NCBI GenBank assembly: GCA_022705345.1
Contig: JAKJEQ010000001.1
Location: 319-49,709, forward strand
Direction of reading: 5' to 3'
DNA: 49,391 bases
From: Planctomycetota bacterium
Lineage (GTDB): Bacteria; Planctomycetota; Phycisphaerae; Sedimentisphaerales; UBA12454
The notes beneath the pieces were generated by a model, which saw only the letters and a program-made list of their open reading frames with translations, was not told where the DNA came from and did not search any database. Positions within the stretch are counted from its first letter, which is position 1; each line of letters starts with the position of its first letter. The translations under genes were made by a program, and so were the position numbers. Shown piece after piece: positions 10,238 through 46,595 of this stretch.

Positions 10238-10291
10238 TGTAGGGGCAGACCTGTGTGTCTGCCCGGGCGAATACATAGGTTCGCCACTACA
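10238..10291. repeat. REP-like double hairpin, family B
   Basis: GGGGCAGACCTGTGTGTCTGCCC followed by GGGCGAATACATAGGTTCGCC. The same unit occurs at 27889..27942, and the first hairpin alone at 43561..43582. Confidence 0.8.
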
Positions 10292-20423: not shown

Positions 20424-20658
20424 GGCGTCAGACACCTTTTCTACTTTTCTGGTAAGTTTTTGAGGTCTTCCGCGTACATTTAAAGAGCAGTTCAAACCCA
20501 GTGAAGAAGATGTTTTAATCATCCATTCAATTTCGCCGAATGGTCTGTTCTTTTCGATTGATCTACGAATCTCTACAATTTCTTTTCATGCGAGCATTGG
20601 CGCTGTTAAAGACGTGGTACGCATAACCTCCAGGTATTATTCGTAATGGTCGTCCCAT
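20424..20658 (-). pseudogene. relic of a REP-associated tyrosine transposase (RayT / IS200-like Y1), internally deleted and frameshifted
   Basis: The minus strand gives MGRPLRIIPGGYAYHVFNSANAR... (typical N-terminus) joined out of frame to ...EIVEIRRSIEKNRPFGEIEWMIKTSSSLGLNCSLNVRGRPQK (typical C-terminus). The HUH/Tyr core is missing. Confidence 0.55.
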
Positions 20659-26280: not shown

Positions 26281-26417
26281 TGTTTTATGAAATTCTATTC
26301 ATCCCTGTCGGGTTTGTAAAAAGTATCCACAAAAGGGCCTTCTGTCAATTTTTTTCTTTCATTTATCGCTCGAAACTGATATTATGTCAAACTTCAATTC
26401 AATATGGTTAGATGGAA

Positions 26418-26473
26418 CAGTGTAAATCCGTGTTAATCCGTGTCGAAAAAACGGTATTAACCTGTGTTAATGC
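26418..26473. repeat. REP-like repeat family A
   Basis: CAGTGTAAATCCGTGTTAATCCGTGTC ... GGTATTAACCTGTGTTAATGC, immediately upstream of accA. Confidence 0.6.
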
Positions 26474-27562: not shown

Positions 27563-27586
27563 TTATTCCAATCTAAAATTTTATTT

Positions 27587-27640
27587 AATCGCAGATTACA
27601 CAGATATTTTGTAAAATCATTTTAATCAGCGTAATCAGTG
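27587..27640. repeat. REP-like repeat family A
   Basis: AATCGCAGATTACACAGAT ... TTAATCAGCGTAATCAGTG, between accA and the kinase gene. Confidence 0.6.
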
Positions 27641-27663
27641 ATTATTAAAAACTGAGGCTATCT

Positions 27664-28704
27664 ATGAAAAAACAAATTATAACCATAGGTCTCACTCCTG
27701 CCTGGGACAGGACAATCGAAATTGACGGCATCGACTGGAACGAGCACAAGATAATTTCATCGCAAAGAATTGTCCCCGCCGGCAAAGCATTGAATATCAA
27801 TAAATCCCTTGCGTGGATGGGTGTAAAAAGTACCGCCGCGGGTCTCTGGGGCAGCCATGATTTTGAGCAAATGAAAAAAACAATTGCGGGGGCAGACCTA
27901 TGTGTCTGCCCAAAAAGGGCGAACACGCAGGTTCGCCCCTACATTAATATTCAAATGACAAAAGCTGTCGGCCGAACCCGTGAAAATATTACAGTCGTTG
28001 ACACAAAAAATAAACGCCAGATTCATCTGCGCGACAAGAGCACACTTGCAAACCAGAAATCGCTGAAACTTTTGAAACAGGATTTGGGGAAAATTATCAG
28101 CAAAGACAGTCTGTGCGTTTTCGCAGGCGCTGCGCCGATTGAAACTGTAGAGCTGCTCGAATTGGCTAAGAAAAAAGGTTCGCTCGTTATCGTTGACACT
28201 TCAGGCCCTGCTTTGAAGAAGATAGTTTCTAAAGGCGGACTGTTTTTGATTAAGCCTAACGTTGAAGAACTCGGCGAACTAGTTGGAAAAAAAATAAGGA
28301 ATGAAGAAAAAGAAATAATTTTTGCATCCAAAAAATTATTGACTAAAAGCAAATTGATCTTAGTATCGCGCGGAGAAAAAGGAGCAATGTTATTGTTCAG
28401 GTCAGAGCCGCGAGCGTCAGCGACCGGTACGGTCGTGGCAATTTCCGCAAAATACACCGGCAAAAAATATCCCGTCTGCAACACCGTCGCCTGCGGCGAT
28501 TATCTGTTGGCAGGTTTTTTATCTGTCATTGCGAGGAGCAAAGCGACGCGGCAATCTCAACCCGCCGAACTGCTCTGTGCTGACGCTCTGGAAACAGCCA
28601 TTAAATCCGCCACCGCAAAAGCTTTCGGAATAAATGAAGACTTTTCCTGGCTCAAAGTAAAAAATATAATGAAGATTAGATTATCCAGCGCATATGAAAT
28701 CTGA
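27664..28704 (+). CDS. PfkB-family carbohydrate kinase (1-phosphofructokinase/tagatose-6-P kinase-like) carrying three REP-derived in-frame inserts
   Basis: 346 aa. N-terminal ITIGLTPAWDRTIEI, AGKALNINKSL, GRTRENI, IKPNVEEL and C-terminal VACGDYLLAGFL (the GAGD anion-hole equivalent). Confidence 0.8.
   Translation: MKKQIITIGLTPAWDRTIEIDGIDWNEHKIISSQRIVPAGKALNINKSLAWMGVKSTAAGLWGSHDFEQMKKTIAGADLCVCPKRANTQVRPYINIQMTKAVGRTRENITVVDTKNKRQIHLRDKSTLANQKSLKLLKQDLGKIISKDSLCVFAGAAPIETVELLELAKKKGSLVIVDTSGPALKKIVSKGGLFLIKPNVEELGELVGKKIRNEEKEIIFASKKLLTKSKLILVSRGEKGAMLLFRSEPRASATGTVVAISAKYTGKKYPVCNTVACGDYLLAGFLSVIARSKATRQSQPAELLCADALETAIKSATAKAFGINEDFSWLKVKNIMKIRLSSAYEI
27889..27942. repeat. family B REP double hairpin inside the kinase CDS (54 bp, in frame)
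   Basis: GGGGCAGACCTATGTGTCTGCCCAAAAAGGGCGAACACGCAGGTTCGCCCCTAC, translated GADLCVCPKRANTQVRPY. Confidence 0.85.
28402..28428. repeat. family H repeat inside the kinase CDS (27 bp, in frame)
   Basis: TCAGAGCCGCGAGCGTCAGCGACCGGT matches the reverse complement of 33379..33405 at 26 of 27 positions. Translated SEPRASATG. Confidence 0.8.
28525..28560. repeat. family C repeat inside the kinase CDS (36 bp, in frame)
   Basis: GTCATTGCGAGGAGCAAAGCGACGCGGCAATCTCAA, the same family as 43591..43631 and the MITE cores. Translated VIARSKATRQSQ. Confidence 0.8.
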
Positions 28705-29704
28705 AAAAAATTTTTCTTATAAACAGCATTTGAAATTCATATTTGTTTTTCTCTCGAGCTTTCTGTTCTTCTTGTTTTTCCTGTTGTCTATTAATATATA
28801 CATCGATCCTCGCGGAATTTTCGGAACTGGAAAATATCCTATTCTCGTAGCTACTGCACGAACAGAAAAAATACTTCTTTTAAAATCTGTGGAGCAAAAA
28901 CCTCAAGCCCTGATTTTCGGAAGTTCTCATTGTATGCGTTATTCTCCCAAATACGTAGAAAATGTTACAGGTTTAAAGACTTTTAATTGTTCGGTAAATT
29001 CCGGCAAAATTGAAGATTTTCTCGCATTACTAAATTTCGCTTTGTCTGAGTGCAATATTCACCCAAAGCTTATTATACTTGGAGTTTGTCCAAGGACTTT
29101 TTGCGAAATACAGGACGAGGATTTTGACGAACGCTTACTGTCAAACGCAACCCTAATAAATTATATTCCTTTAAATTCAATACCAAGAATTCAAAAAAAA
29201 GCCGGTTTGTTTCTGAATACCCTTAATTTCGGCTATCTGAAAGATGTTAGGAGAAGTTTCGTATTATCCCAAAAACAAAACCTGCCTCTAAAGTTTTACA
29301 CCTTCGAGTCTGACGGCTTTTTAAGATTCGAGGAAAAGTTCAATGAAAAAGGAGCTTTTATCGCGAAAGATTTAGAGGTAACAGGATTTTCAAAGAACCG
29401 CATCGAATTTTTTGAGACTTTTTTAAAACTTTGCAGGCAAAACAACATCAAGCTCAAAATTATTATTACGCCATACGCACCGGATTATATCAAACAGCAA
29501 GCCGGCGGAAATCACGACCGGCTTAATCAACTGCTTGCGGAAATGCTGAAAAATTACAATAAGGAACATTCTTTTGAATTCTACAACTTCCCGCATATTG
29601 AAGATTATGGCGGTGTTGATGAATTTATGGGCTCCGCCCACCCGAGTATTTATAATTCAACTTTAATTCTGAAAAAATGTTTGACAGGCTTCAAAGAGAG
29701 CTAA
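28694..29704 (+). CDS. membrane-anchored DltD/AlgJ-like accessory protein of an MBOAT O-acyltransferase
   Basis: 336 aa with an N-terminal TM segment and FGSSHCMRY (Ser-His block, as in DltD-type SGNH-like proteins). It is 1 nt from the MBOAT gene. Assignment rests partly on context. Confidence 0.45.
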   Translation: MKSEKNFSYKQHLKFIFVFLSSFLFFLFFLLSINIYIDPRGIFGTGKYPILVATARTEKILLLKSVEQKPQALIFGSSHCMRYSPKYVENVTGLKTFNCSVNSGKIEDFLALLNFALSECNIHPKLIILGVCPRTFCEIQDEDFDERLLSNATLINYIPLNSIPRIQKKAGLFLNTLNFGYLKDVRRSFVLSQKQNLPLKFYTFESDGFLRFEEKFNEKGAFIAKDLEVTGFSKNRIEFFETFLKLCRQNNIKLKIIITPYAPDYIKQQAGGNHDRLNQLLAEMLKNYNKEHSFEFYNFPHIEDYGGVDEFMGSAHPSIYNSTLILKKCLTGFKES

Positions 29705-29705
29705 C

Positions 29706-31100
29706 ATGCTGTTTACAGATTTGAGATTTATTTTTATATTCTTACCTTTCGTGCTTTCCCTTTTTTATTTTACAAAATCGAAAAATTTTCGTCTGCTCGT
29801 CATTCTGATATCAAGTTATATTTTTTACGGTTCCTGGAATTACAAATTCTTAAGTCTGCTTTTTACATCGACTGTTCTCGATTTCTTTTCGGGATTGGCG
29901 ATTTATCGCTTCGCCGATAAAAAAATTTTACGTAAATCTATTTTGATATTTTCAATGTTATGCAACCTCGCCATTCTCGGTATTTTTAAATATTACGATT
30001 TTTTTATTACTCAGGTTCAGACTTTGCTTGTGAATTTCGGATTCCAGCCTGATCTGCCGCTGCTGCATGTGATTCTTCCGGTAGGTATTTCGTTTTATAC
30101 TTTTCAAAGTATGAGTTATACCATCGATATTTATTTTGGAAGCGTGACCCCTACTCGCAACTTTTTCAAATTTTCAGCTTTTATCGCATTGTATCCCCAG
30201 CTTGTGGCCGGACCTATTGTCAGATACAAGCAAATAAATCGGCAGCTTGAACATATCAATAGACCTTTTTCGTTGAAGAATTTTTGTTGTGGAATTCAAT
30301 TGTTCGTTCTAGGGCTTGCAAAAAAAACGATTATCGCCGATTATATCGCAGGAATCATCAATCCGATGTTCGAACGGTATTTGCAGATCGGAATGATTGA
30401 AACTTGGCTTATAATTCTGGGATACGCGTTTCAGATTTATTTTGATTTTTCAGGTTACAGCGATATGGCTATCGGCCTTGGCAAAATGCTTGGTTTCAAA
30501 TTTCCATATAATTTCAATTCACCTTATAAGGCTCGTTCTGTTTCGGATTTTTGGAGACGATGGCATATGACCCTGTCCTCTTTTCTTAAGGATTATTTGT
30601 ATATTCCTCTTGGTGGTAATCGGACCGGTTTGAAAAAAACTATATTTAACGTTATGGTTGTATTTCTGCTTTGTGGTATATGGCATGGGGCAGCATGGAC
30701 TTTTATCATTTGGGGCTGCTATTATGGAATCCTGGCTGCAGGATATAATTTCTGGAAAAATCGATGGGACGGTATGCCGATCTTGGCTCAGAGGTCCTTT
30801 ACTTTTGTACTGGTTCTGATTGGATGGGTTTTATTCAGAAGCAATAATATCCCTATGGCGGGGACTTTGCTGAGCAAAATGTTTGATTTTTCTTCGCTTG
30901 CGAGCGCTCTGCCGGACGATATTGTGCGTTTATTGATTTTGAATATTGTTTTGTTGGTCGCGGTTAACAGTCTGCCAAACTCTAATTCTTTTAAAATTAG
31001 TCAAAATCCGATTGCGGCAATCTCCTTAGCTTTACTGTTCCTTTTATCGTTGATAGCTGTCAATTCCTTAAGTATACAATTTTTGTATTATCAATTCTGA
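29706..31100 (+). CDS. MBOAT family O-acyltransferase (AlgI/DltB-like)
   Basis: 464 aa, polytopic. ISFYTFQSMSYTIDIY, FWRRWHMTLSSFLKDYLYIPLGGNR with the conserved His, and WHGAAW. Confidence 0.9.
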   Translation: MLFTDLRFIFIFLPFVLSLFYFTKSKNFRLLVILISSYIFYGSWNYKFLSLLFTSTVLDFFSGLAIYRFADKKILRKSILIFSMLCNLAILGIFKYYDFFITQVQTLLVNFGFQPDLPLLHVILPVGISFYTFQSMSYTIDIYFGSVTPTRNFFKFSAFIALYPQLVAGPIVRYKQINRQLEHINRPFSLKNFCCGIQLFVLGLAKKTIIADYIAGIINPMFERYLQIGMIETWLIILGYAFQIYFDFSGYSDMAIGLGKMLGFKFPYNFNSPYKARSVSDFWRRWHMTLSSFLKDYLYIPLGGNRTGLKKTIFNVMVVFLLCGIWHGAAWTFIIWGCYYGILAAGYNFWKNRWDGMPILAQRSFTFVLVLIGWVLFRSNNIPMAGTLLSKMFDFSSLASALPDDIVRLLILNIVLLVAVNSLPNSNSFKISQNPIAAISLALLFLLSLIAVNSLSIQFLYYQF

Positions 31101-31189
31101 AAAGGCGAATAATGAATATTATCGCAGAATCGTGATGCCAAAACAGCTTCAAAATTAAACGTAACAATTCCTCCGGTATTCATTTTAAG

Positions 31190-31218
31190 ATTGATTTTTT
31201 GATTAAGATATGGTATAA
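31190..31218 (+). promoter_or_regulatory. strong sigma-70-like promoter with an extended -10, upstream of the HNH-AP2 gene
   Basis: TTGATT (31190..31195), 17 nt, TGgTATAAT (31210..31218). AGGAG RBS before the ATG at 31302. Confidence 0.5.
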
Positions 31219-31301
31219 TACCTTCTGAAATTCAGGACATAGATAAATCTCCGCAAGTTTTCAATTCTTTAATCTTCATTTTTTTTCACAGGAGTCATTT
31301 T

Positions 31302-31970
31302 ATGCCGTTGCAAAAGAGGAAAATCGATTATTTAATGTTCAAAATTCGGGGCAATATCGTCAAAGTTGATCCCGACATATATTGTAAAATCTTCAATATT
31401 CATCGCGAGCCGCCGAACAGAAAATATAGAGGTCCTATTAAACACCTGGCTATTTCTCCGAATGGCAATCCACTAATTGTTATTGGTGAAAAAGTTCGGC
31501 ACTATATTCCTATTTCTCGTTTTATAATGAACGCGCAAAAAGGCCAAATTGTAGACCATATAAACAGAGATCCATTTGACAATCGAAGATGTAATCTGCG
31601 TTTCGTTACAAAAAGGCAAAATACGTTGAACAAAACGTGCTATAATGAAACGGGTTTTTTTGGCGTAAACATCATTCGTTCGAAGAATAGAAGTTATTGT
31701 TTTGGCAAGTTTTTATGGACGCGCGGAAAGGACTTTCGAATTCAACTGCCTGATAATCCAGCAAACAGGGTCGTATGCGCATTTGCGAGAGACAAATTTG
31801 TTTTACAGGCCGGCGACGAGGAATACGCGCCTCTTAATTTCCCCTGCTTTAAATATGAACCGTTCAGGAGCATTTTACTGAATGAAGATTTGAAAAAATA
31901 TAAAACTAAACGTTATGCAAATTGCCAGCTCGAATTTCCGTTTATGAAATTTTACAAAAAATATATTTAG
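31302..31970 (+). CDS. HNH endonuclease fused to an AP2 DNA-binding domain (homing-endonuclease-like)
   Basis: 222 aa. HNH_3-type VDHINRDPFDNRRCNLRFVTKRQNTLN, followed by an AP2-like FFGVNIIRSKNRSYCFGKFLW...VCAFARDKFVLQAGDEEYAPLNFP. Confidence 0.75.
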   Translation: MPLQKRKIDYLMFKIRGNIVKVDPDIYCKIFNIHREPPNRKYRGPIKHLAISPNGNPLIVIGEKVRHYIPISRFIMNAQKGQIVDHINRDPFDNRRCNLRFVTKRQNTLNKTCYNETGFFGVNIIRSKNRSYCFGKFLWTRGKDFRIQLPDNPANRVVCAFARDKFVLQAGDEEYAPLNFPCFKYEPFRSILLNEDLKKYKTKRYANCQLEFPFMKFYKKYI

Positions 31971-32008
31971 CGTTTGTCATCATTGTACGATAGCGAAATG
32001 CCTGATAG

Positions 32009-32152
32009 ATTGTTATCCCATCGGGATCTCAATCCATTGAAAAACCCTGTGCATCCGCTCTGGAAAATGCCATTAAATCCGCCACAGCAAAAGCCTTTGG
32101 TCTAAATGAAAAACTCAATTGGCCAAAAGCGAATTTAAGTTGGACGTTATAA
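32009..32152 (+). pseudogene. orphan duplicate of the 3' end of the PfkB-family kinase gene
   Basis: Translates ...CASALENAIKSATAKAFGLNEKLNW...*, versus the kinase C-terminus LCADALETAIKSATAKAFGINEDFSW. 32047..32129 aligns with 28575..28657 at roughly 80% identity by eye. No start codon; it is preceded by an in-frame TAG. Confidence 0.7.
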
Positions 32153-33246: not shown

Positions 33247-33308
33247 TGCCTATTCTCCTAAAAAAAATAGTTATAAAATATTTATTCGTGGTTAATTTTT
33301 TTAAAAAT

Positions 33309-33329
33309 AAATCTCTGTGATCTCTGTCG
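33309..33329. repeat. REP-like repeat family D (CTCTGTGATCTCTGT type)
   Basis: AATCTCTGTGATCTCTGTCG. Related to 36369..36390 and 46596..46616 (reverse complement CAGAGGACAC(C/A)GAGAT). Confidence 0.5.
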
Positions 33330-33378
33330 TATAAATCAAAATTTCCTAACATTTTAGCAAACACAAAGAATTTTAATT

Positions 33379-33405
33379 ACCGGTCGCTTACGCTCGCGGC
33401 TCTGA
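33379..33405. repeat. family H repeat, intergenic copy
   Basis: ACCGGTCGCTTACGCTCGCGGCTCTGA, immediately downstream of the dprA stop. Confidence 0.75.
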
Positions 33406-33406: not shown

Positions 33407-34465
33407 TTATCTTTTTGTGAAATAATTTCCCGGCAATTGTTTTACGATTCCTTTTAATCGCATAGAAACCAATGTCGCGTTAACTTTGCCGGCGGAGAGT
33501 TCAGTCTCGCTTATTATTTCTTCGATATGGACCGGTTCGCTATCAAGGCAATCCAGGATTTTTCTTTCAGTTTCCGTCAGATTTAATTTAGACGTATCGA
33601 ACAATTCCTTCTGTTTTTCGATTTCCTTATCCGCTGTCTGCCTGACGTGCTGAGCGAAATCGATATTCAAAAATTCCAAAGCTTCGAGGACGTCTTCGAC
33701 CGACTCGACCAATTTTGCGCCCTGCTTAATCAGTTTGTGCGGGCCCTTCGATAAAGGCGAATCGATCTTGCCGGGGATAGCCATTACTTCACGATTGCTT
33801 TCAAGCGCGGTTTGCGCGGTGATAAGCGCGCCCGATTTTGGCATTGCCTCGACGACGATTGTCGCGATAGACAGGCCTGCGATGATCCTGTTTCGAGGCG
33901 GGAAGTTTTCGGCCAATGGTTCGTACTCCATCGGAAGTTCGCTGACACATGCGCCGTTCTGACAGATTTTCTCGAAGAGCGCTTTATTTTCGGGCGGGAA
34001 AATATTAGACAGGCCGCAGCCCTGGACTGCGATTGTTCTGCCTTTTGCGCTAAGTGCGCCGTTGTGCGCTGCGGAATCTATGCCTCTTGCCATTCCGGAA
34101 ACGATTGTGAAACCTGCGGCGGCAAGGAGATGCGCGAATCTCGACGCCTGTTCGGTTCCGTAATTGCTGCAATGGCGAGAGCCGACAATGGCTATTGAAA
34201 GACTATCGCAGGGCTGGAAATCCCCTTTTATATAAAGCACCGGCGGCGGATCGTAAATTTTCTTCAGGGCGGGCGGGTATCTGTCGTCTGTTATATCGAT
34301 GACGCATACGCCGAATTTGTCGGCGATTGCCAGTTCCTTTTCGACATCGAAGCTTGTTTTGGATTTGAAAATCTTTTCGGCGGTTTTTTCGCCAATTCCC
34401 TCGACTTTTGCCAGCGAGCTGACCGAAGAACCGAGAACAGCTTCTACAGACCCGAAAAATGCCAA
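33407..34465 (-). CDS. dprA: DNA processing protein DprA (true start probably further upstream, up to about 34549..34564)
   Basis: Rossmann-like DprA core IAIVGSRHCSNYG, GMARGIDSAAH, and a C-terminal winged-helix region. DprA-like sequence LRLVRSEGVGPVNFSRLL continues in frame upstream of the first canonical start (TTG at 34465). Confidence 0.88.
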   Translation of the reverse strand: MAFFGSVEAVLGSSVSSLAKVEGIGEKTAEKIFKSKTSFDVEKELAIADKFGVCVIDITDDRYPPALKKIYDPPPVLYIKGDFQPCDSLSIAIVGSRHCSNYGTEQASRFAHLLAAAGFTIVSGMARGIDSAAHNGALSAKGRTIAVQGCGLSNIFPPENKALFEKICQNGACVSELPMEYEPLAENFPPRNRIIAGLSIATIVVEAMPKSGALITAQTALESNREVMAIPGKIDSPLSKGPHKLIKQGAKLVESVEDVLEALEFLNIDFAQHVRQTADKEIEKQKELFDTSKLNLTETERKILDCLDSEPVHIEEIISETELSAGKVNATLVSMRLKGIVKQLPGNYFTKR

Positions 34466-36334: not shown

Positions 36335-36535
36335 CGATTGAAATTCCAATGCTCAAAACAGCGATGTTTGCCACAGAGGACACAGAGATTTATTTTTATA
36401 TTTTATTAACCCCCAGGATAAACCTGGGGGCTAAACACGGTTTTTTAACAGCTCCTAACTGAAATCAGAAATACCAATATCGAAATTCGAAACAAATTAA
36501 AATTACCAAAATTCCAATGCACAAAACTACTGATT
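36335..36535. repeat. cluster of short dispersed repeats (family D copy, CCCCCAGG..CCTGGGGG hairpin, AATTCCAATGC(T/A)CAAAAC direct repeat)
   Basis: AAATTCCAATGCTCAAAAC (36341..) and AAATTCCAATGCACAAAAC (36511..). GCCACAGAGGACACAGAGATT (36370..36390). Hairpin CCCCCAGGATAAACCTGGGGG (36411..36431). Confidence 0.55.
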
Positions 36536-36572: not shown

Positions 36573-37259
36573 TTAATTTTCCCATCGTTCTTTAAGAGAT
36601 ATATTCTGAAATGTCTTACCTGAAAGTTTGCCGCCGGGGTACCAAAGTTCCTGATAATGTTTTTTTGCTTTATATAAATGGGTTAAAGGAGAATGCCACA
36701 ACCGAACAGTTTGCATTCTTTCAAATTTACAATGTTTTTTTATACCTTGCTGATATTTCTCTGGAAGGTTGTCTACGAAAGCCGATTCAGATAACCAGCC
36801 TGCTGGATATACATTACTATCTGTTTCGGCAACAGCATACAACATCATATTAATACTTGCACGTTGAAGATTGTCTAAAGCTCTAATTTTAGCCGGTTCA
36901 TCAAAAGAGTAATTATATTTTTGACATAAATAAGCATATTGTATGCTTAAAACAATTGCCAAAAAAATTAAAAAGAGACTTGCAGCATAAATTACTGTTT
37001 TCTTTTCTACAAACAATAAAATGGGGAATAAAGATAAAATTGGAATATGCAACTGGAGAGCTCCTTTTAGCTTTAACTGTGGCGGCAGGAATTCTACAAC
37101 TATAACGAGAACAACTATTATAGACAGTGGGATTAGAACGGCTTTCAGGAATCTTTTCTCGTTGTATTTGGTTCCCCAAATTAAAGCCATGAAGATACCA
37201 AATGCCGGTGCAAACAAAATACCTATGGCATTAAAATCTGCTTCCATATCAATCTCCAA
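36573..37259 (-). CDS. integral membrane protein (hypothetical; last gene of the rhs-orphan array, possible immunity protein)
   Basis: 228 aa with about four TM helices and then a soluble tail. It follows the rhs stub at 37377..37529. Confidence 0.5.
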   Translation of the reverse strand: MEIDMEADFNAIGILFAPAFGIFMALIWGTKYNEKRFLKAVLIPLSIIVVLVIVVEFLPPQLKLKGALQLHIPILSLFPILLFVEKKTVIYAASLFLIFLAIVLSIQYAYLCQKYNYSFDEPAKIRALDNLQRASINMMLYAVAETDSNVYPAGWLSESAFVDNLPEKYQQGIKKHCKFERMQTVRLWHSPLTHLYKAKKHYQELWYPGGKLSGKTFQNISLKERWEN

Positions 37260-37376
37260 GTAAATATTGATAGTTGTATGATAAGCATTAATGGTATATA
37301 GTCAAGTAGGCTGTTATACATATAGTTGTTTAAGGGCTAAGTAGTATGAAAATTAAAACATATTTGGCAGCATTTA

Positions 37377-37529
37377 TTATGATACCGTTCTTTTCATGTT
37401 GCTGCGGTTGCCCACTTTGTCATAATCGCAGTAATTAAAATCGAATTGCGAATTTTCCAGATTATTGGTTATCCTTGTAAGTCTGTTCGCAAAGTCGTAT
37501 TTATAAATTATGTTCGCATATAATAATTT
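37377..37529 (-). pseudogene. rhs YD-repeat stub (no start, early stop)
   Basis: Translates ...YANIIYKYDFANRLTRITNNLENSQFDFNYCDYDKVGNRSNMKRTVS*. The DNA at 37395..37522 is roughly 94% identical to 39691..39818. Confidence 0.7.
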
Positions 37530-37534
37530 TCATA

Positions 37535-37930
37535 TTAGTTATTTTTTAAAGAAAAAAACAAATGATTAAAATATATTAAAGCAGAAAAAGTCACGATAGG
37601 AACTATTAGAAAAACAAACAAATTATTATTTAATAAATTTAGTTTTGAAGCAAAGACTATTGATAACATTATACAAAAAACAGCAAATAAAAATCCTATT
37701 AGAAAATTATTATATACTGACTTTAATAATTCTGAATAAAACGCTTTGGCTACGAAAAACATTAATGTGATTAAAACAGTTACTTCAAACATTAAAAGTA
37801 TCAAAATAAACAGGAATCTAATAACTGAAGGAATATAAACACCTTCCAAATATTCCGACCAATTTACACTAAAATGCATAATTAAATTACCAACCAAAAT
37901 CCCAATATAAATCGAAATCATTTTCTGCAT
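37535..37930 (-). CDS. small polytopic membrane protein, putative immunity protein for the toxin at 37941..38606
   Basis: 131 aa with four hydrophobic helices. It starts 10 nt after the toxin stop. Confidence 0.5.
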   Translation of the reverse strand: MQKMISIYIGILVGNLIMHFSVNWSEYLEGVYIPSVIRFLFILILLMFEVTVLITLMFFVAKAFYSELLKSVYNNFLIGFLFAVFCIMLSIVFASKLNLLNNNLFVFLIVPIVTFSALIYFNHLFFSLKNN

Positions 37931-37940
37931 ATTAGCAACC

Positions 37941-38606
37941 TCACTCTTTCTTATTTCCTTTTTCAGTTTTATGTGCTTTTTTTTGCTCCATCTCTCGTTT
38001 CAATGCTTCACGTGCAGCTCGTTTTTGCTCTCTTTCGAGTCTTACTGCTTCACGAACAACTTCATTGATATAAGTATGGCAATCATTATCGGGATGATTA
38101 TACCTTCTACCACCTGCCTTATATTCTTTTCGCCAACGCTCTTGAACATTCTTTTCAGCTTGTCTCACGAGGTTATCATCAAGGTTACGATGTATTGTTT
38201 TGTTATATTTTGATTGACGCCCTGGTAAATCGTTCCTGAACACAGGTCCATTATCGCTATCACCAAAATATCCGCTATTACTTGGTTGATCATCATAATA
38301 TATTTGCCAATGGTCTCCCGCAGGATGATCCCCATAAAAATAAGATGCCAGCTTTCTCGTAATTGGATTATCTAAAGGTCGGCCAAGCACTCTTGCTTCT
38401 CCGTAAGGATCTATGAAGTTAATAGAATTATTACCACAGTACTGATACAGATTCATCGAGTCGTAGTAGCCTATTGGGTCGGGACTTAAAAATCTGCCGA
38501 TGGATGGATTATAGTACCTCGCTCTATAATAGTAAAGTCCCGTCTCCTCATCATATTCGCGGCCGGTGAACATCAATCTATTAGCCGCAGAGGACACCGA
38601 ACCCAC
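37941..38606 (-). CDS. orphan Rhs C-terminal module: RHS repeat-associated core end plus an LRAT/NlpC-P60-like (His...NxC) toxin domain; the frame is open and rhs-like up to 38732 without a start codon
   Basis: FTGREYDEETGLYYYRARYYNPSIGRFLSPDPIG...NSINFIDPYGE is the Rhs core and cleavage motif. The CT has DHWQIYYDD ... HPDNDCHTYINEV. Upstream in frame: VVVEGYSYDSFGKTKILTG (YD repeat). Confidence 0.75.
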   Translation of the reverse strand: MGSVSSAANRLMFTGREYDEETGLYYYRARYYNPSIGRFLSPDPIGYYDSMNLYQYCGNNSINFIDPYGEARVLGRPLDNPITRKLASYFYGDHPAGDHWQIYYDDQPSNSGYFGDSDNGPVFRNDLPGRQSKYNKTIHRNLDDNLVRQAEKNVQERWRKEYKAGGRRYNHPDNDCHTYINEVVREAVRLEREQKRAAREALKREMEQKKAHKTEKGNKKE

Positions 38607-38737
38607 AGAGTCATCTGCCGTTAACCATTTATTATCATTGCCTGCACCAGTCAGTATCTTTGTCTTGCCGAAGGAATCGTAGCTGTAACCCTCAACAACT
38701 ACTCCGCTATTTTTAAAAGAGCTAAATGGGAATTAAA

Positions 38738-39031
38738 TTATACTCTTTTTTTTATTGGCCATATTTTACATAATAGCACAAAAGACCAAAAGAAAATTAT
38801 TATTGCTAAAGCTGCTATTGCTATTTGAATATAAAAAAGCGAAACAGCAAAAGGTGAGATAGACGGCCAAAACGGATAATTTTCTGAGAATAATACCTCT
38901 TCACTTATGTATCTTCCCTCAATCCAAGCCATATTTTCAAAGAAAAATTTAGCAGATAACCACAATGGCAACAACCAGCTTATATTTAATGACGAAACCA
39001 ACAAATGAATTAAGAGACGTAGTTTATTCAT
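38738..39031 (-). CDS. small membrane protein, putative immunity protein for the toxin at 39060..39659
   Basis: 97 aa with three hydrophobic helices, directly downstream of the toxin module. Confidence 0.5.
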   Translation of the reverse strand: MNKLRLLIHLLVSSLNISWLLPLWLSAKFFFENMAWIEGRYISEEVLFSENYPFWPSISPFAVSLFYIQIAIAALAIIIFFWSFVLLCKIWPIKKRV

Positions 39032-39059
39032 TTACATTATCCTTATCTAAATTTTCACA

Positions 39060-39882
39060 TCATGACTTTTTCAGCGATTCATTTTTAGTTGGATCTTTTT
39101 TTTCTTTTTCTTTAATGTTTTCCATTAATTCTCTCGGAGTTTCAACTCCAAACCAGCTATCAGCATCAACATCCTCACCAGTCACTTTTTCAGCAGTATC
39201 ACTCGCATAAGAACTGCAATTATTAGTTGGATATCTATATTTTTGTTTTTTATTTATTTCTTCTTGTAACTTTTTTTCCTGTTTTTTTGTCAGATTATTG
39301 TAATATCGATTAGCTGTACCCGTATGTGGTTCTTTATTCTTATGGACATCGCTATCAGGTCTTACGCGCGTTACTGGTTTGGAATGACTTTTATGCCATA
39401 AACCATAAGTTGTAGTTTTACCATCGTCATCTGTATATGAAATCCAAGAATGCGAACCTGTACTGTGTATTCCTAACGTGGCTAATCCCCACGGATCTAT
39501 CAAATTCACCTTGATTGAGTTCATTTCGGCCATAACTTGTTTCAGCCGACCCTGTCTCAGCTTTCGTTCTGCTGCCAAGCTTATCATAATAATAATTCGC
39601 ATCGCTAAAGAAACATCCCGCAGGATAATCAACACCGGAAAGCTGATGTATTTCATCATAGCTGTATCTGTGTTCTTCCCCGTTTGCTATCATGTTCCTG
39701 CGGTTGTCCACTTTGTCATAATCGCAGTAATTAAAATCGAATTCCGAATTTTCCAGATTATTGGTTATCCTTGTAAGCCTGTTCGCAAAATCGTATTTAT
39801 ATACAATATTAGCATTATTAGCATTATTAGCATAAGTAAGCAATGTTCTTCTCGACAATTCGTCACACTCATACTCAGTCAT
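39060..39882 (-). pseudogene. orphan Rhs fragment, frameshifted: YD repeats (39427..39882) joined out of frame to NLIDPWGL plus an LRAT-like toxin CT (39060..about 39520)
   Basis: Frame A reads YKYDFANRLTRI...YSYDEIHQL...YYYDKLGSRT...NELNQ. Frame B reads NSIKVNLIDPWGLATLGIHSTGSHSWISYTDDDG...YRYPTNNCSSYASD. Confidence 0.7.
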
Positions 39883-39894
39883 GCTAATGTTTTT

Positions 39895-40410
39895 TTACTC
39901 TTCGGAATATTTTTGTATAAATAAATTTGCAGACTTAAAATGTTTGTTTAAATAAGGATCTATTGTAATAAGTAAAACTTCACAAGTGACATTTGCATCT
40001 ATCGGGATATCTTTCGGCGATTCAAATTCACACTTAATTTCCCCATCTCCATGCCCGAGCCCCCATGACTTATTATAGTAATCTGAGGTCTTTCTGGAAA
40101 TTAATAGAATACCATCTTGATAAAAATTTAGTTTCATATTTAATTTTAAATCATATGCCTTCCGATATAGGTCATCATCCAGTCCGTCTAATACAATAAT
40201 CGCAGCATAGTGCCCTATATATTTTGTTTTAAATTCATAAGTTTGGACTTTATTTGTGTCAGAAATTTCAATTTTTTTATTTAGAATCGGATCATATAAA
40301 TCCTCAGGAGGACAAAAAATTTGGACATGCGGCCTGAGAAAACCTAGGATTTTACCTTTGCAAATTGGTACTCTTAGAAGAGGTATTATAAAAAAAAAAC
40401 TACCAAACAA
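39895..40410 (-). CDS. hypothetical protein (possible immunity protein); the 5' end is ambiguous because of a T10 tract
   Basis: 171 aa from TTG at 40410. An ATG at 40451 (MKIKYMVILSIFLVCLVV...) would join this frame with one extra T in the T10 run (plus-strand A10 at 40390..40399). Confidence 0.5.
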   Translation of the reverse strand: MFGSFFFIIPLLRVPICKGKILGFLRPHVQIFCPPEDLYDPILNKKIEISDTNKVQTYEFKTKYIGHYAAIIVLDGLDDDLYRKAYDLKLNMKLNFYQDGILLISRKTSDYYNKSWGLGHGDGEIKCEFESPKDIPIDANVTCEVLLITIDPYLNKHFKSANLFIQKYSEE

Positions 40411-41541: not shown

Positions 41542-41634
41542 GTCAAAGGCTCGTGCCTAAGACGGTATCACTTTGGGGTAAAACCATCCTTAAAAATCCT
41601 AATTTATTATTTTTTGAAAGGAGCGGATGCGCAA

Positions 41635-43521
41635 ATGGCTGTAGAAAATGCCAGGCAGTACCTGCAAGACAAACTGGACACGGAAAATTTTGAAAAATTA
41701 TCGGTTCTCAATAACGATAAGCTCTTCAAGTTTATCGCAGATTCTATCGAATTAACAAAGCCTGCTAAGGTTTTCGTCTCTACGGACAGTGCCGGCGATG
41801 TTGAATATACGCGTAAACAGGCAATTGCCACAGGCGAGGAAAAGCCGCTGAATACTAAAGGCCACACCCTCCATTTCGATGGAATGGAAGATCACGGCCG
41901 TGACCGCGAAGTCACAAAATACCTCGTTCCCGCTAACGATATTCTCAGCAAAGCTTTAAATCAGATGGAACGCCAGGCGGGTCTCAACGAAGTTTGCGGC
42001 CTGCTCGATGGTTCCATGATTGGCAGAACAATGGTCGTCCGCTTTTTGACGCTCGGCCCGAACAATTCCGTTTTCAGCATTCCGTGCGTCGAATGCACCG
42101 ATTCATTCTACGTTTCACACAGTATGAACCTGCTGTATCGTCTTGGCTATGAAGAGTTTAAACGCCTCGGCGCAAAAGCAGAGTTTTTCGCAACTCTGCA
42201 CAGCAGCGGCAAAGTCGACGAAAGAATGACCAGTTCTGAATCGGATAAAAAACGCATATATATAGATTACACAACTGATACGGTTTATTCGGTAAATAGC
42301 CAATACGCCGGCAACACCGTCGGCCTTAAGAAGTTAGCGCTTCGCCTGACAATCCGCAAAGCCGACCGCGAAGGATGGCTCGCAGAGCACATGTTCCTTT
42401 CCGGCGTTTACGGCAAAGGCGGAAGAAAAACTTATCTGGCGGGCGCATTTCCAAGCGCATGCGGCAAAACATCGACCGCGATGCTCCCCGGCGAAACAAT
42501 CCTCGGCGACGACATCGCTTATTTCCGCGAAATCGACGGCAAATGCATGGCCGTCAACGCTGAAGCGGGCATCTTCGGAATCATCCAAAATGTTACCGCA
42601 AAAGACGACCCGGCGATTTGGGATGTACTAACAAAACCCGGCGAAGTTATTTTCTCCAATGTACTTGTGAAAGACGGCAATCCATATTGGCTCGGCATGG
42701 GCGTTGATATACCAGCCGACGGCGAAAACTTCTCAGGCCAGTGGCACAAAGGCAAAAAAGACGCAAAAGGCGCCGAAATCCCATGTGCGCATAAAAACGC
42801 ACGTTACGCTGTGACGCTTAAAGCTTTGCAGAATTGCGATCCGGAACTTGAGAATACAAACGGCGTTCCGCTTGCCGGTCTTATGTATGGCGGACGCGAT
42901 CCGAAATCGTATGTCCCCTGCCAGCAGGGATTTAGCTGGGAGCACGGCATCGTCGCTTACGGCGCTTCGCTCGAAACTGAAACCACTTTCGCAACCGTCG
43001 GCAAAGAAGGCGTTCCGGAAATCAATCTCATGAGTATCCAGGATTTCGTCGCGATTTCGCTCGGCAAATACGTGAAGAACAATCTCGACTTCGGCAAGAA
43101 ATTCAAGAACCCGCCGCTTGTTTTCGGCGTTAACTATTTCCTTCGCGACAAGGATGGAAAATTTACCAACGGCGTCCGCGACAAACACGTCTGGGTAAAA
43201 TGGATGGAACTGCGAGTCCACAACGAAGCAGCCGCCCTGGTCGCTCCAACCGGCTTGATTCCATGCTATGAAGATTTGCAGGCATTATTCAAACAGGTTT
43301 TGAACAAAGAATATTCACAGGCCGATTATGTTAATCAGTTTACAATCCGCATAAAAGAAAATCTCGAAAAGATTGACAGGGTTGTGAAGTATCATAAAGA
43401 GAACGTTGCTGAATCTCCGGCCGAAGTGTTCAAAGTTCTGGCAGAGCAGAAACAGCGACTCGAAGAAGCAGGCAAAAAGTTCGGCGATTTCGTCTCTCCA
43501 TTCGATTTGAATAAAAAATAA
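41635..43521 (+). CDS. pckG: phosphoenolpyruvate carboxykinase (GTP)
   Basis: Kinase-1a FPSACGKTS, GDDIAY, and a GTP-PEPCK-type C-terminal nucleotide domain. The ATG at 41635 is preceded by AAAGGAG, whereas the track start at 41614 is a TTG inside the RBS region. Confidence 0.92.
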   Translation: MAVENARQYLQDKLDTENFEKLSVLNNDKLFKFIADSIELTKPAKVFVSTDSAGDVEYTRKQAIATGEEKPLNTKGHTLHFDGMEDHGRDREVTKYLVPANDILSKALNQMERQAGLNEVCGLLDGSMIGRTMVVRFLTLGPNNSVFSIPCVECTDSFYVSHSMNLLYRLGYEEFKRLGAKAEFFATLHSSGKVDERMTSSESDKKRIYIDYTTDTVYSVNSQYAGNTVGLKKLALRLTIRKADREGWLAEHMFLSGVYGKGGRKTYLAGAFPSACGKTSTAMLPGETILGDDIAYFREIDGKCMAVNAEAGIFGIIQNVTAKDDPAIWDVLTKPGEVIFSNVLVKDGNPYWLGMGVDIPADGENFSGQWHKGKKDAKGAEIPCAHKNARYAVTLKALQNCDPELENTNGVPLAGLMYGGRDPKSYVPCQQGFSWEHGIVAYGASLETETTFATVGKEGVPEINLMSIQDFVAISLGKYVKNNLDFGKKFKNPPLVFGVNYFLRDKDGKFTNGVRDKHVWVKWMELRVHNEAAALVAPTGLIPCYEDLQALFKQVLNKEYSQADYVNQFTIRIKENLEKIDRVVKYHKENVAESPAEVFKVLAEQKQRLEEAGKKFGDFVSPFDLNKK

Positions 43522-43560: not shown

Positions 43561-43757
43561 GGGCAGACCTTTGTGTCTGCCCTTTTTGTTTGTCATTGCG
43601 AGGACCCCTTAGGGGGACGTGGCAATCTCAAGCCTGCACACACATTGGGCTTTAAAACCCTCATTAATCCCCGGTGTTTTTATTTACCATAACCTTAAAA
43701 CCGTCATTTCGACCGGAGCTTGCCCGCCTATGGAGGGCGAAACGCAGCGGAGAAATC
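43561..43757. repeat. composite cluster of three REP families (B, C, F); the first hairpin also serves as a terminator-like structure after pckG
   Basis: GGGCAGACCTTTGTGTCTGCCC plus TTTTT (43561..43587). TGTCATTGCGAGGACCCCTTAGGGGGACGTGGCAATCTCAA (43591..43631). CGTCATTTCGACCGGAGC...GGCGAAACGCAGCGGAGAAATC (43702..43757). Track ORF 43619..43816 is made of these repeats. Confidence 0.75.
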
Positions 43758-46223: not shown

Positions 46224-46426
46224 CTCAAACTGACCGATTTTGATAATGATATTTATTTAACTCATTATTTAATAAATGATAACACACTTTATAATTTATG
46301 GTTTGAGATTGCTTCGTCGTCTCGAAACGGGACTTCTCGCAATGACAAAAATGGCGTTTGTATGTCATTGCGAGGCTGTCCGCAGACAGCCGTGGCAATC
46401 TCAACCGCTGAATCGGTCAGTTTGAG
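46224..46426. mobile_element. MITE-like non-autonomous element, copy 2 (inverted relative to copy 1)
   Basis: The ends are CTCAAACTGACCGAT (46224..46238) and ATCGGTCAGTTTGAG (46412..46426). The interior is collinear with the reverse complement of 318..531. Confidence 0.7.
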
Positions 46427-46595
46427 TTAATTTTGACAAATATTTCCCGGGTTTATTACGGCCAAAAAATTTAAAAATCAGTCCGTGCCTGAAATCAAAC
46501 CCCGCGAAGTTACTATAAAGATATACCCCATTATTAGAAATAAGTTCGATAGGGAAAAACACTACAGCTTTCGAGTGGAAACCCTTGCTATTCGG

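What the first reader, a model, noticed from the sequence alone, without database searches (positions are those of the whole stretch)
27889..28560. Three different intergenic REP families inserted in frame in one PfkB-family kinase gene
The kinase ORF (27664..28704) contains three segments that are copies of non-coding repeats seen elsewhere in this window.
1. 27889..27942 (54 bp) is the family B double hairpin also found upstream of hemL (10238..10291) and after pckG (43561..43582). It is translated GADLCVCPKRANTQVRPY.
2. 28402..28428 (27 bp) matches the reverse complement of 33379..33405, downstream of dprA, at 26 of 27 positions. It is translated SEPRASATG.
3. 28525..28560 (36 bp) is the GTCATTGCGAGG...GGCAATCTCAA family, as at 43591..43631 and in the MITE. 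It is translated VIARSKATRQSQ.

All three are multiples of 3, begin on a codon boundary and introduce no stop. From my memory of E. coli FruK, the stretch from ...F(Q/E)Q... to GRTR has the same length as here once the 18 residues are removed, and the other two regions are about 11-12 residues longer than in FruK. Either palindromic repeats are being domesticated as surface loops, or the gene is in early decay while still open.
Basis: partly seen in the sequence, partly recalled or inferred. Interest (0 to 1): 0.7.

Follow-up and report, generated by a model that had tools for sequence, protein, structure and literature searches.

The report
Mobile palindromic repeats translated inside a kinase
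Three small mobile DNA repeats that normally lie between genes sit in frame in three surface loops of an apparently working sugar-kinase gene, and related bacteria carry other repeat families at the same three spots, which adds insertion hot spots to an already known phenomenon.

Summary
The PfkB-family kinase ORF (27664-28704, identical to a protein of Planctomycetes bacterium ADurb.Bin401) contains three segments from dispersed repeat families: a GTAG-tagged REP inverted doublet (27886-27942), one unit of a widespread 26-27-nt repeat (28402-28429), and one unit of the GTCATTGCGAGG...GGCAATCTCAA family (28525-28560).

Syntenic orthologues without inserts show these are derived insertions, net +14, +10 and +9 residues. 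In an AlphaFold model (pLDDT 89) they fall in a coil, a beta-hairpin turn and an inter-helix loop. The NxxE and G-D catalytic motifs are invariant and all 37 orthologues are open, so early decay is not supported.

New here: about 17 close orthologues carry different REP-derived peptides at the same three sites (11, 10 and 7 parsimony steps). A sister pair with 100% bootstrap differs in family at site 1. Six neighbouring genes in the same genomes have no indels. The site-1 REP is 93% identical between two genomes whose kinase genes and flanks are 72-74% identical, which points to repeated insertion or in-situ replacement.

Intragenic REPs are already documented (Rickettsia RPEs; Di Nocera 2013), so this is a new, unusually dense member of a known kind. 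Why these sites are hot spots is unresolved.

The parts
27664..28704 (+). PfkB-family (1-PFK/hexose-kinase-like) kinase CDS, 346 aa, host of the three inserts
   Evidence: AlphaFold pLDDT 89.3, pTM 0.90; Foldseek best matches 3ie7, 2jg5, 3cqd, 2abq, TM 0.75/0.84
27886..27942 (+). Site 1: GTAG-tagged REP inverted doublet (REPIN-like). Hairpins at 27890-27911 and 27917-27938; left tag mutated to GCGG, right CTAC intact. Translated (A)GADLCVCPKRANTQVRPY, residues 75/76-93
   Evidence: (D7, I7). In the model it is coil between H64-75 and E94-101, with pLDDT below 50 at residues 85-90
28402..28429 (+). Site 2: single unit of the dispersed repeat ttCCGAGCCGCGAGCGTaAGCGACCGGt. Translated SEPRASATG, residues 247-255
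   Evidence: (I8). In the model it is the turn between strands E240-246 and E257-264
28525..28560 (+). Site 3: unit of the GTCATTGCGAGG-[variable centre]-CG(Y)GGCAATCTCAA family with a trimmed centre. Translated VIARSKATRQSQ, residues 288-299
   Evidence: (D5, D15). In the model it lies between H277-289 and H301-321; pLDDT of that block is 67
10238..10291 (+). Intergenic copy of the site-1 REP doublet, with an intact GTAG...CTAC outer stem
   Evidence: -17.9 kcal/mol, z = -5.4
43561..43631 (+). Intergenic site holding a single site-1-type hairpin followed by a T-run (terminator-like, downstream of ORF 41614-43521), directly followed by a site-3-family unit (43592-43628)
33378..33405 (-). Intergenic copy of the site-2 repeat unit, immediately 3' of dprA (33407-34465, minus strand)
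   Evidence: (I8)
46225..46430 (.). About 210-nt MITE-like element with terminal inverted repeats (ACTCAAA.TGACCGATT). It holds two site-3-family units (46306-46346 minus, 46364-46401 plus). A second copy lies in inverted orientation at about 317-530
   Evidence: (I1 122 nt 93%, I2 47 nt 87%)
31966..32152 (+). Degenerate site-3-family element (about 31966-32033) followed by an orphan 3' end of a kinase gene (32027-32152, 42 codons). The duplication boundary coincides with the right end of the site-3 REP
   Evidence: (D2)
20457..20658 (-). Internally deleted relic of a RAYT-like Y1 transposase gene, followed by an AAAAGGTGTCTGACGCCTTT hairpin. It is syntenic with intact genes in L004 and L007

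Best explanation
Three non-autonomous palindromic mobile elements have inserted into a functional, fast-evolving PfkB-family kinase gene. They are a GTAG-tagged REP doublet, one unit of a second REP-type repeat that usually occurs as inverted pairs, and one unit of a repeat family that is also a component of a MITE. In other bacteria such elements are moved in trans by RAYT-type Y1/HUH transposases acting on single-stranded DNA.

Only insertions that keep the frame, carry no stop and fall in solvent-exposed connections survive purifying selection. They are therefore read through and translated as loop extensions of about 9-19 residues. The three connections are a helix-to-lid-strand coil, a beta-hairpin turn, and the loop after the catalytic G-D helix.

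The same three positions have been hit or overwritten many times in related Phycisphaerae-like genomes by different repeat families. Elements there are also duplicated, internally deleted and lost, so the loops turn over while the enzyme core stays conserved.

Shown: repeat-family membership, derived in-frame status, loop location in the model, conserved active site, recurrence at the same sites, and decoupling of REP identity from flank phylogeny.

Inferred: mobilisation by RAYT-type enzymes, translation of the inserts, and the cause of the hot spots.
For: Repeat families:
- Searches show the copies inside the window.
- The first hairpin of segment 1 occurs in at least 120 genome stretches from many phyla, and 124 of 142 copies (87%) are preceded by GTAG.
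- The segment-2 unit has at least 135 copies in metagenomes.

Derived insertions:
- Syntenic orthologues (purQ-purL-tyrA | accA-pfkB ... dprA | folC) lack them, for example L007 and L130.
- All 18 more distant orthologues are insert-free at sites 1 and 3, and 16 of 18 at site 2.

Gene still functional:
- All 37 ORFs are intact.
- The invariant residues include N199, E202, G278 and D279, which align with the NxxE and GAGD motifs of B. halodurans FruK, 2abq.
- The fold is PfkB.

Loop location: DSSP and pLDDT.

Hot spots:
- Fitch steps are 11, 10 and 7 against minima of 4, 5 and 4.
- P0009 and P0002 are sisters with 100% bootstrap but carry CRVGFSPRG versus ADLCVCP at site 1.
- Site 1 of the orthologues holds GTAGGGTGGGCTTYAGCCCAC, which also has intergenic copies in L005 and L007.

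The kinase is exceptional: six neighbouring genes in the same seven genomes have no internal indel block of 4 aa or more and are 80-91% identical. pfkB has 5 such blocks and is 68% identical.

The REP is decoupled from the gene:
- The REP is 53/57 nt identical between the window and L001, against 72% for the rest of the gene (53% at third positions) and 74% for the +-90-nt flanks.
- L001 and L003 have 85% identical flanks but different REPs.

RAYT-like genes exist in the lineage:
- L004 and L007 carry Y1_Tnp genes. The L007 protein's only NCBIfam hit is NF047646, 'REP-associated tyrosine transposase' (62.6 bits).
- The window holds a deleted relic of such a gene.

Precedent: intragenic GTAG/CGTC REPs and Rickettsia RPEs (PMC3733652; PMC10969869).
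Against: - There are no expression or peptide data, so translation of the inserts is inferred from ORF conservation only.
- The only RAYT-like genes seen are flanked by a different hairpin family (AAAAGGTGTCAGGAAC). The L007 match is below the NCBIfam cutoff (62.6 vs 80 bits). No cognate transposase for any of the three families was identified.
- Segments 2 and 3 in the kinase do not fold as hairpins.
- Loop tolerance alone does not explain the pattern. In about 17 close genomes 65-76% of these loops are occupied, yet strong GC hairpins are rare in the surrounding 20-kb loci (0.05-0.2 per kb).
- Each insert replaced 2-4 host codons, which is not the clean cut-and-paste pattern of IS200/IS605-type insertion.
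- The tree is a neighbour-joining tree of one short protein. Several sister pairs have only 65-69% bootstrap.
Confidence: 0.8

Rival explanations
1. The three loop positions are sequence- or structure-specific landing sites. Once a REP is present, it is the preferred substrate for further REP insertion or replacement by RAYT-type enzymes ('REP begets REP'). On this view the hot spots reflect targeting rather than only tolerance. This refines the main explanation rather than replacing it.
For: - The same junction positions are re-used by two GTAG families at site 1.
- REP identity is decoupled from flanks.
- Several occupied sites hold tandem or nested elements: L004 site 1 has a partial plus a full unit, L003 site 3 a degenerate plus an intact unit, and L005 site 2 two different elements.
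- Loop occupancy is far above the REP density of the neighbouring DNA.
- Class switching of REPs at orthologous sites is reported next to RAYT genes (PMC3686654).
Against: - No conserved target motif is visible next to the GTAG. The preceding base is T in 50, C in 49, G in 14 and A in 11 copies.
- Families at sites 2 and 3 lack GTAG tags.
- No cognate RAYT was found.
- No experiment on REP integration specificity exists for these families.
Confidence: 0.35
2. The shared inserts arose once each and were spread among lineages by homologous recombination of kinase alleles. The apparent recurrence would then be an artefact of a mosaic gene tree.
For: - These are co-occurring environmental lineages with a conserved locus, so allele exchange is plausible.
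- At site 3, pairs with the same insert state have slightly more similar flanks (p = 0.06).
- The kinase B-type copies share a CCGCAAAA tail that the intergenic copies lack.
Against: - Flank similarity does not track insert state at sites 1 and 2 (p = 0.6-0.9).
- At DNA level the +-90-nt flanks follow the gene tree: L001-L003 are 85% identical with different REPs, while window-L001 are 74% and L003-L005 75% with the same REP.
Confidence: 0.1
3. The inserts are kept because they do something. Either the hairpins act at DNA/RNA level (mRNA stability, pausing, antisense termination, protein binding sites), or the added loops tune the kinase. This is true domestication.
For: - REP segments are 92-94% identical between genomes whose genes are saturated at synonymous sites. 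Nucleotide-level constraint would produce this.
- The sense-strand copy of hairpin 1 is followed by AAAAA, whereas the intergenic copy at 43561 is followed by a T-run. This is consistent with avoiding termination inside the gene.
Against: - Different, unrelated families occupy the same site in sister genomes, and some close relatives (P0018) have none.
- Segments 2 and 3 have lost hairpin potential.
- L001 site 3 is an internally deleted scar.
- No terminator-like site was called in the inserts.
Confidence: 0.1
4. The kinase is a decaying gene, or the inserts are assembly artefacts of metagenome bins.
For: - pfkB is the fastest-evolving gene of the neighbourhood (68% versus 80-91% identity).
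- All data come from MAGs and metagenome contigs.
Against: - All 37 orthologue ORFs are intact, every insert is in frame, and the catalytic motifs are invariant.
- The same inserts are seen in independent assemblies. P0002 is on 6 contigs from different projects and P0001 is held by NCBI, JGI and ENA.
Confidence: 0.04

Closest known systems
Intragenic GTAG- and CGTC-tagged REPs (Di Nocera et al. 2013, BMC Genomics 14:522, PMC3733652)
   Same: - Short GTAG-tagged hairpins, often as inverted dimers encoding about 20-30 residues, lie entirely inside ORFs.
- Some ORFs are hit twice.
- Different REPs lie at about the same site in Xanthomonas recB.
- The highest intragenic GTAG counts are in a PVC-group bacterium (O. 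terrae).
   Different: - Three different repeat families occupy one 1-kb gene.
- Recurrence at three fixed sites was inferred over about 17 orthologues, with zero-indel neighbours as controls.
- The host gene is a sugar kinase rather than the replication and repair genes emphasised in that paper.
- The site-1 hairpin occurs with identical sequence across many phyla.
Rickettsia palindromic elements, RPEs (Ogata et al. 2000; summarised in PMC10969869)
   Same: Palindromic mobile repeats are inserted in frame in unrelated metabolic genes, and are predicted to be compatible with protein fold and function.
   Different: - According to PMC10969869, RPEs are about 150 bp, each with a conserved ORF-encoded peptide.
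- The elements here are 28-57 nt and show rapid turnover and family replacement at the same site.
REPINs and RAYTs (Bertels & Rainey 2011, PMC3116915; Nunvar et al. 2013, PMC3686654)
   Same: - Inverted REP doublets with a GTAG tag.
- A single-copy, syntenic RAYT-like Y1 transposase gene in the lineage.
- Switching of REP class at orthologous positions.
   Different: - REPINs are described as extragenic and largely lineage-specific.
- Here the doublet is coding and its hairpin sequence is shared across phyla.
- No cognate RAYT flanked by these families was found.
PfkB/ribokinase-family 1-phosphofructokinase, tagatose-6-phosphate kinase and Pfk-2 (PDB 2abq, 3ie7, 2jg5, 3cqd)
   Same: Same fold (TM 0.75/0.84), with the NxxE motif and the G-D catalytic motif.
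   Different: - It scores below the NCBIfam cutoffs for 1-PFK (133.8 vs 292 bits) and for the hexose-kinase subfamily (138.7 vs 216.4 bits).
- It has PAGKALN and ACGD variants of the motifs.
- It carries three extra loops. The substrate is unknown.

Membership tests
GTAG-tagged REP / REPIN | Short (20-40 nt) GC-rich stem-loop | tested here: met
   Two perfect 8-bp stems at 27890-27911 and 27917-27938; -17.9 kcal/mol, z = -4.4
GTAG-tagged REP / REPIN | GTAG tetranucleotide at one end of the hairpin | tested here: met
   124 of 142 copies in other genomes are preceded by GTAG. The 10238 copy and the L001 kinase copy have GTAG. In the window kinase the left tag is GCGG and the right tag CTAC is intact
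GTAG-tagged REP / REPIN | Multi-copy, dispersed, predominantly extragenic | tested here: met
   3 copies in the window, 2 of them intergenic. At least 120 genome stretches elsewhere. Most copies lie at ORF edges, and the apparent deep intragenic cases are mostly spurious frames
GTAG-tagged REP / REPIN | Inverted doublet of two related units | tested here: met
   Unit 2 is the reverse complement of a unit about 77% identical to unit 1, with compensatory stem changes (CAGAC/GTCTG vs CGAAC/GTTCG). 14 of 142 copies elsewhere have such a partner, and GAAC stems are the commonest
GTAG-tagged REP / REPIN | Cognate RAYT gene flanked by the same REP in the same genome | tested here: inconclusive
   Only a deleted RAYT-like relic is in the window (20457-20658). 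The intact syntenic genes in L004 and L007 are flanked by a different hairpin family. The whole genome was not available
In-frame intragenic palindromic insertion (RPE / intragenic REP type) | Segment absent from true orthologues | tested here: met
   The syntenic orthologues L007 and L130 and 16-18 of 18 outgroup proteins lack each insert
In-frame intragenic palindromic insertion (RPE / intragenic REP type) | Frame kept, no stop, host ORF otherwise conserved | tested here: met
   All 37 ORFs are intact, and N199, E202, G278 and D279 are invariant
In-frame intragenic palindromic insertion (RPE / intragenic REP type) | Insert lies in a surface loop compatible with the fold | tested here: met
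   The AlphaFold model shows coil or turn at residues 76-93 and 247-256 and an inter-helix position at 288-299, with local pLDDT dips. Distances to the active site were not computed
In-frame intragenic palindromic insertion (RPE / intragenic REP type) | Insert-bearing protein is expressed | not testable with these tools
   No transcript or peptide data
PfkB carbohydrate kinase (PF00294) | Pfam gathering score, ribokinase-like fold, NxxE and G-D motifs | tested here: met
   68.4 bits against a 25.8-bit cutoff; Foldseek TM 0.75/0.84; motifs
1-phosphofructokinase (TIGR03828 equivalog) | Score above the curated equivalog cutoff | tested here: not met
   133.8 bits against a 292-bit cutoff. The substrate should not be assumed
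MITE (for the site-3 family) | Non-autonomous element with terminal inverted repeats, multi-copy | tested here: inconclusive
   The ~210-nt element at 46225-46430 and 317-530 has inverted ends and contains two units. The kinase carries only a solo unit. Target-site duplications were not examined

The most novel reading that the evidence does not exclude
The three loop codon positions of this kinase are specific landing pads that REP/REPIN families re-use and overwrite again and again, as REP-for-REP replacement on single-stranded DNA by RAYT-type enzymes. If so, this gene family is a natural record of REP target choice and turnover, and a case where mobile palindromes continuously remodel enzyme loops.
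Probability: 0.3. Interest if true: 0.6.

Novelty: new member of a known kind. Interest (0 to 1): 0.45.

Why it matters
How REPs and REPINs choose their targets and how long copies persist is still poorly understood, and intragenic copies are usually treated as curiosities. Here one small gene has three sites with many gain, replacement, duplication and decay events across close relatives, next to neighbouring genes with none. That gives a compact comparative system for three questions:
- whether REPs target existing REPs;
- how proteins absorb 9-19-residue palindrome-encoded loops;
- whether intragenic REPs act as ectopic recombination points, as the orphan kinase 3' end suggests.

It is also a practical warning for annotation. 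Peptides such as VGADLCVCP, CRVGFSPRG, HSRESGNP, SEPRxxxSG and VIARSxATxQS inside proteins mark repeat insertions, not conserved domains.

Tried and rejected
- **Peptide screen of the 5.8-billion protein database.** The concatenated 46-aa query returned no candidates, so no genome-wide count of REP peptides in proteins was obtained.
- **Full-text search for the repeat strings and peptides.** Only unrelated primer matches came back.
- **Intragenic copies of the site-1 hairpin in other phyla.** Of 149 copies, a few lay deep in long stop-free frames. On inspection these were mostly spurious frames in GC-rich DNA, or copies at the edges of genes such as a pantoate-ligase-like ORF in L097. This is not evidence of frequent intragenic insertion elsewhere.
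- **Allele exchange as the cause of shared inserts.** Protein flanks and DNA flanks give no support at sites 1-2 and only marginal support at site 3.
- **Internal terminator role.** No terminator-like site was called in the inserts.
- **Known RNA families.** Rfam finds only the SRP RNA in the window. There are no tRNA genes.
- **Common descent versus independent insertion of the window and L001 copies.** The shared loop variant CTATGT is not informative, because it makes up 49% of copies elsewhere. The CCGCAAAA tail of the B-type kinase copies could be host sequence. This stays unresolved.
Full report
**1. What is at the coordinates**

The ORF 27664-28704 (+) encodes a 346-aa protein. It matches PfkB PF00294 at 68.4 bits. 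Its best NCBIfam matches are the hexose-kinase/1-PFK models, but it scores below their cutoffs: 138.7 vs 216.4 bits and 133.8 vs 292 bits. An identical protein is recorded for 'Planctomycetes bacterium ADurb.Bin401'.

*Segment 1* carries two perfect 8-bp GC-rich hairpins, at 27890-27911 and 27917-27938.
- As single-stranded DNA it folds far better than shuffled sequence (-17.9 kcal/mol, z = -4.4).
- It matches the doublet at 10238-10291 and the single hairpin at 43561-43582.

*Segment 2* matches 33379-33405 on the other strand at 26 of 27 positions, where none is expected by chance.

*Segment 3* shares its two conserved ends with 43592-43628, with 46364-46401, and with the reverse-strand copy at 46306-46346.

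**2. What the three elements are**

*Segment 1 is a GTAG-tagged REP inverted doublet.*
- The second hairpin is the reverse complement of a unit related to the first. The stems differ by compensatory changes, and the whole is bracketed by GTAG...CTAC in the intergenic copy.
- The exact 22-nt first hairpin occurs in at least 120 stretches of species-representative genomes from many phyla.
- 124 of 142 such copies are preceded by GTAG. About a tenth have an inverted GTAG-tagged partner, most often with the same GGGCGAAC stem as here.
- In the kinase the left tag has mutated to GCGG, so the element is best placed at 27886-27942.

*Segment 2 is not a palindrome on its own* (z = -0.7).
- It is one unit of a 26-27-nt repeat, ttCCGAGCCGCGAGCGTaAGCGACCGGt.
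- At least 135 copies were found in at least 120 metagenome stretches, frequently as close inverted pairs.

*Segment 3 belongs to a family with conserved ends and a variable central hairpin.*
- The ends are GTCATTGCGAGG and CG(Y)GGCAATCTCAA.
- Two units of this family form the core of a ~210-nt MITE-like element, present at 46225-46430 and, inverted, at about 317-530.
- The kinase copy has the shortest centre and no longer folds.

**3. They are derived insertions in a gene that still looks functional**

Eight orthologous loci share the gene order purQ-purL-tyrA | accA-pfkB ... dprA | folC, so the comparison is between true orthologues.
- Orthologues such as L007 and L130 have none of the inserts.
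- The 18 more distant orthologues in the 37-sequence alignment are insert-free at sites 1 and 3, and 16 of the 18 are insert-free at site 2.
- Relative to insert-free relatives the net gains are +14, +10 and +9 residues.

All 37 ORFs are intact. N199 and E202 (NxxE) and G278-D279 are invariant, and they align with the corresponding motifs of B. halodurans fructose-1-phosphate kinase, 2abq.

The AlphaFold model is confident (pLDDT 89.3, pTM 0.90) and has the PfkB fold (TM 0.75/0.84 to 3ie7, 2jg5, 3cqd and 2abq). The inserts sit as follows, each with a local confidence dip:
- Insert 1 (residues 76-93) is coil between helix 64-75 and strand 94-101.
- Insert 2 (residues 247-255) is the turn of a beta-hairpin.
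- Insert 3 (residues 288-299) lies between helices 277-289 and 301-321.

'Early decay' is therefore not supported. At least 20 distinct insert alleles at the three sites are all in frame, which argues for continuing selection on the reading frame.

**4. The unexpected part: three hot spots**

Within the inner clade of about 17 orthologues (57-72% identical to the query), the same three positions carry different repeat-derived peptides:

| Site | Peptides seen |
|---|---|
| 1 | ADLCVCP...VRPY; CRVGFSPRG; HSRESGNP; none |
| 2 | SEPRxxxSG; SPAITMAGS; AEFIPxxC...; SPxIY; none |
| 3 | VIARS...QSQ; AGKNGTGS...; YLAPRPAGG; none |

- The DNA behind them is hairpin-rich. At least one of the other families (GTAGGGTGGGCTTYAGCCCAC) has intergenic copies in L005 and L007.
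- On a neighbour-joining tree built from the insert-masked alignment, parsimony needs 11, 10 and 7 changes at sites 1, 2 and 3. The minima are 4, 5 and 4.
- The sisters P0009 and P0002 (100% bootstrap) carry different GTAG families at site 1.
- Occupied sites show tandem units (L004 site 1, L003 site 3, L005 site 2) and an internally deleted scar (L001 site 3, GTCATTGCGA|CTGA|ATCTCAA).
- In the same seven genomes, purQ, purL, tyrA, accA, dprA and folC have no internal indel block of 4 residues or more and are 80-91% identical. pfkB has five such blocks and is 68% identical.
- Strong GC hairpins are rare in the surrounding loci (0.05-0.2 per kb). In L001 and L008 every one found lies inside the kinase.

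**5. REP identity is decoupled from the gene**

- Between the window and L001 the site-1 element is 53/57 nt identical, with 17 of 19 third positions matching. The rest of the gene is 72% identical with third positions at 53%, and the +-90-nt flanks are 74% identical.
- L003 vs L005 (33/36) and L004 vs L006 (31/33) show the same excess.
- Conversely, L001 and L003 have 85% identical flanks but different REP families.
- Flank similarity does not track insert state at protein level either.

This argues against spread of insert-bearing alleles by homologous recombination. It favours independent insertion, in-situ replacement, or REP-limited conversion. Nucleotide-level constraint cannot be excluded. 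I could not separate these options: the shared loop variant is uninformative, and the tail shared by B-type kinase copies may be host sequence.

**6. Mechanism**

The best-supported reading has three parts.
- These are non-autonomous palindromic mobile elements of the REP/REPIN/MITE kind.
- They are tolerated when they land in frame in exposed connections of a weakly constrained enzyme.
- They are translated as loop extensions.

Mobilisation by RAYT-type Y1 transposases is inferred from what is known about GTAG REPs (PMC3733652, PMC3116915). The lineage does carry a syntenic RAYT-like gene:
- It is intact in L004 and L007. The only NCBIfam hit of the L007 protein is 'REP-associated tyrosine transposase' at 62.6 bits, below the cutoff of 80.
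- The window has an internally deleted relic at 20457-20658.
- Those genes are flanked by a different hairpin family, so no cognate enzyme for the three families was identified.

Why these three sites are hot spots remains open. Tolerance alone seems insufficient given the low REP density nearby. Targeting of existing REPs is the most attractive refinement, at roughly one chance in three.

**7. Comparison with what is known**

In-frame palindromic insertions are established.
- Rickettsia RPEs are summarised in PMC10969869.
- Di Nocera et al. 2013 (PMC3733652) describe intragenic GTAG/CGTC REPs. They report dimers encoding 20-30 residues, ORFs hit twice, different REPs at about the same site in Xanthomonas recB, and the highest intragenic GTAG counts in a PVC-group bacterium.
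- REP class switching at orthologous positions is reported next to RAYT genes (PMC3686654).

The finding is therefore a new member of a known kind. What it adds is the density (three families in 1 kb), the evidence for recurrence at fixed loop positions with internal controls, and the decoupling of REP identity from flanks.

**8. Side observations**

- A 42-codon orphan 3' end of a kinase gene lies at 32027-32152. It begins exactly at the right end of a degenerate site-3-family element.
  - It is closer to the L001-type C-terminus (69%) than the functional C-terminus of the window kinase is (52%).
  - Between the functional gene and the orphan lie DUF1574, MBOAT and HNH_3 genes.
  - This fits recombination at the intragenic REP that brought in a replacement 3' end together with three genes.
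- The cross-phylum sequence identity of the site-1 hairpin and the wide distribution of the site-2 unit are themselves odd for REPs and were not explained.

**9. Verdict**

Interest is moderate (0.45), because the phenomenon is known but the hot-spot behaviour is unusually clear and testable.

Noticed in passing
window 31966-32152 (with 28554-28704 and the genes at 28694-31970): Orphan 42-codon 3' end of a pfkB-like gene (SQSIEKPCASALENAIKSATAKAFGLNEKLNW...). It starts at the right end of a degenerate site-3-family repeat, and DUF1574, MBOAT and HNH_3 genes separate it from the functional kinase. This looks like recombination at the intragenic REP that swapped in a new 3' end plus an island. 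An HNH_3 homologue (63.5% aa) also follows the kinase in L007.
   Followed up: partly
window 20457-20658 (-); L004 3333-3857; L007 2849-3532: Internally deleted relic of a RAYT-like Y1 transposase gene in the window, syntenic with intact genes in two orthologous loci. These genes are flanked by AAAAGGTGTCAG(G/A)(A/C)ACC hairpins, a further repeat family, and lie next to 23S_rRNA_IVP (four-helix-bundle) genes.
   Followed up: partly
L009-L128 (genome-contig hits); L131-L210 (metagenome hits): The exact 22-nt GTAG REP hairpin GGGCAGACCTNTGTGTCTGCCC occurs in genomes of many phyla (Bacteroidota, Cyanobacteria, Firmicutes, Chloroflexi, Desulfobacterota, Campylobacterota, Saccharibacteria and others). 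The site-2 unit is similarly widespread in soil, peat and mat metagenomes. Such cross-phylum identity is unusual for REPs, and no paper with these strings was found.
   Followed up: partly
window 27586-27642, 26417-26451, 6924-6978, 7368-7414, 1448-1482, 33302-33337, 36363-36398: Another dispersed repeat class, made of short tandem or inverted GATTACAC(A/G)GAT, TAATCAGCGTAATCAGTGAT and CACAGAGATCACAGAGAT motifs. It sits in intergenic regions, several just upstream of genes including the kinase and accA. Orthologous spacers in other loci carry GCCAC(T/G)AAGGCAC(T/G)AAG-type repeats instead.
   Followed up: no
window 317-530 and 46225-46430: Two copies of a ~210-nt MITE-like element (122 nt at 93% plus 47 nt at 87%) lie in inverted orientation about 45.7 kb apart, near the two ends of the window.
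   Followed up: no
L007 kinase, alignment columns 214-218: A fourth, lineage-specific 5-residue insert (VSLSN) in the L007/P0018 kinase, at a position where all other orthologues have none. It may be another repeat fragment.
   Followed up: no
window 37394-37519 and 39690-39815; ORFs 36573-40410: A 126-nt direct repeat (92%) lies in a block of minus-strand ORFs. The four of these ORFs that were scanned have no Pfam match.
   Followed up: no
window 2579-2676 (-): Bacterial small SRP RNA (RF00169, 64.8 bits). It is the only Rfam family at gathering threshold in the window, and there are no tRNA genes.
   Followed up: yes
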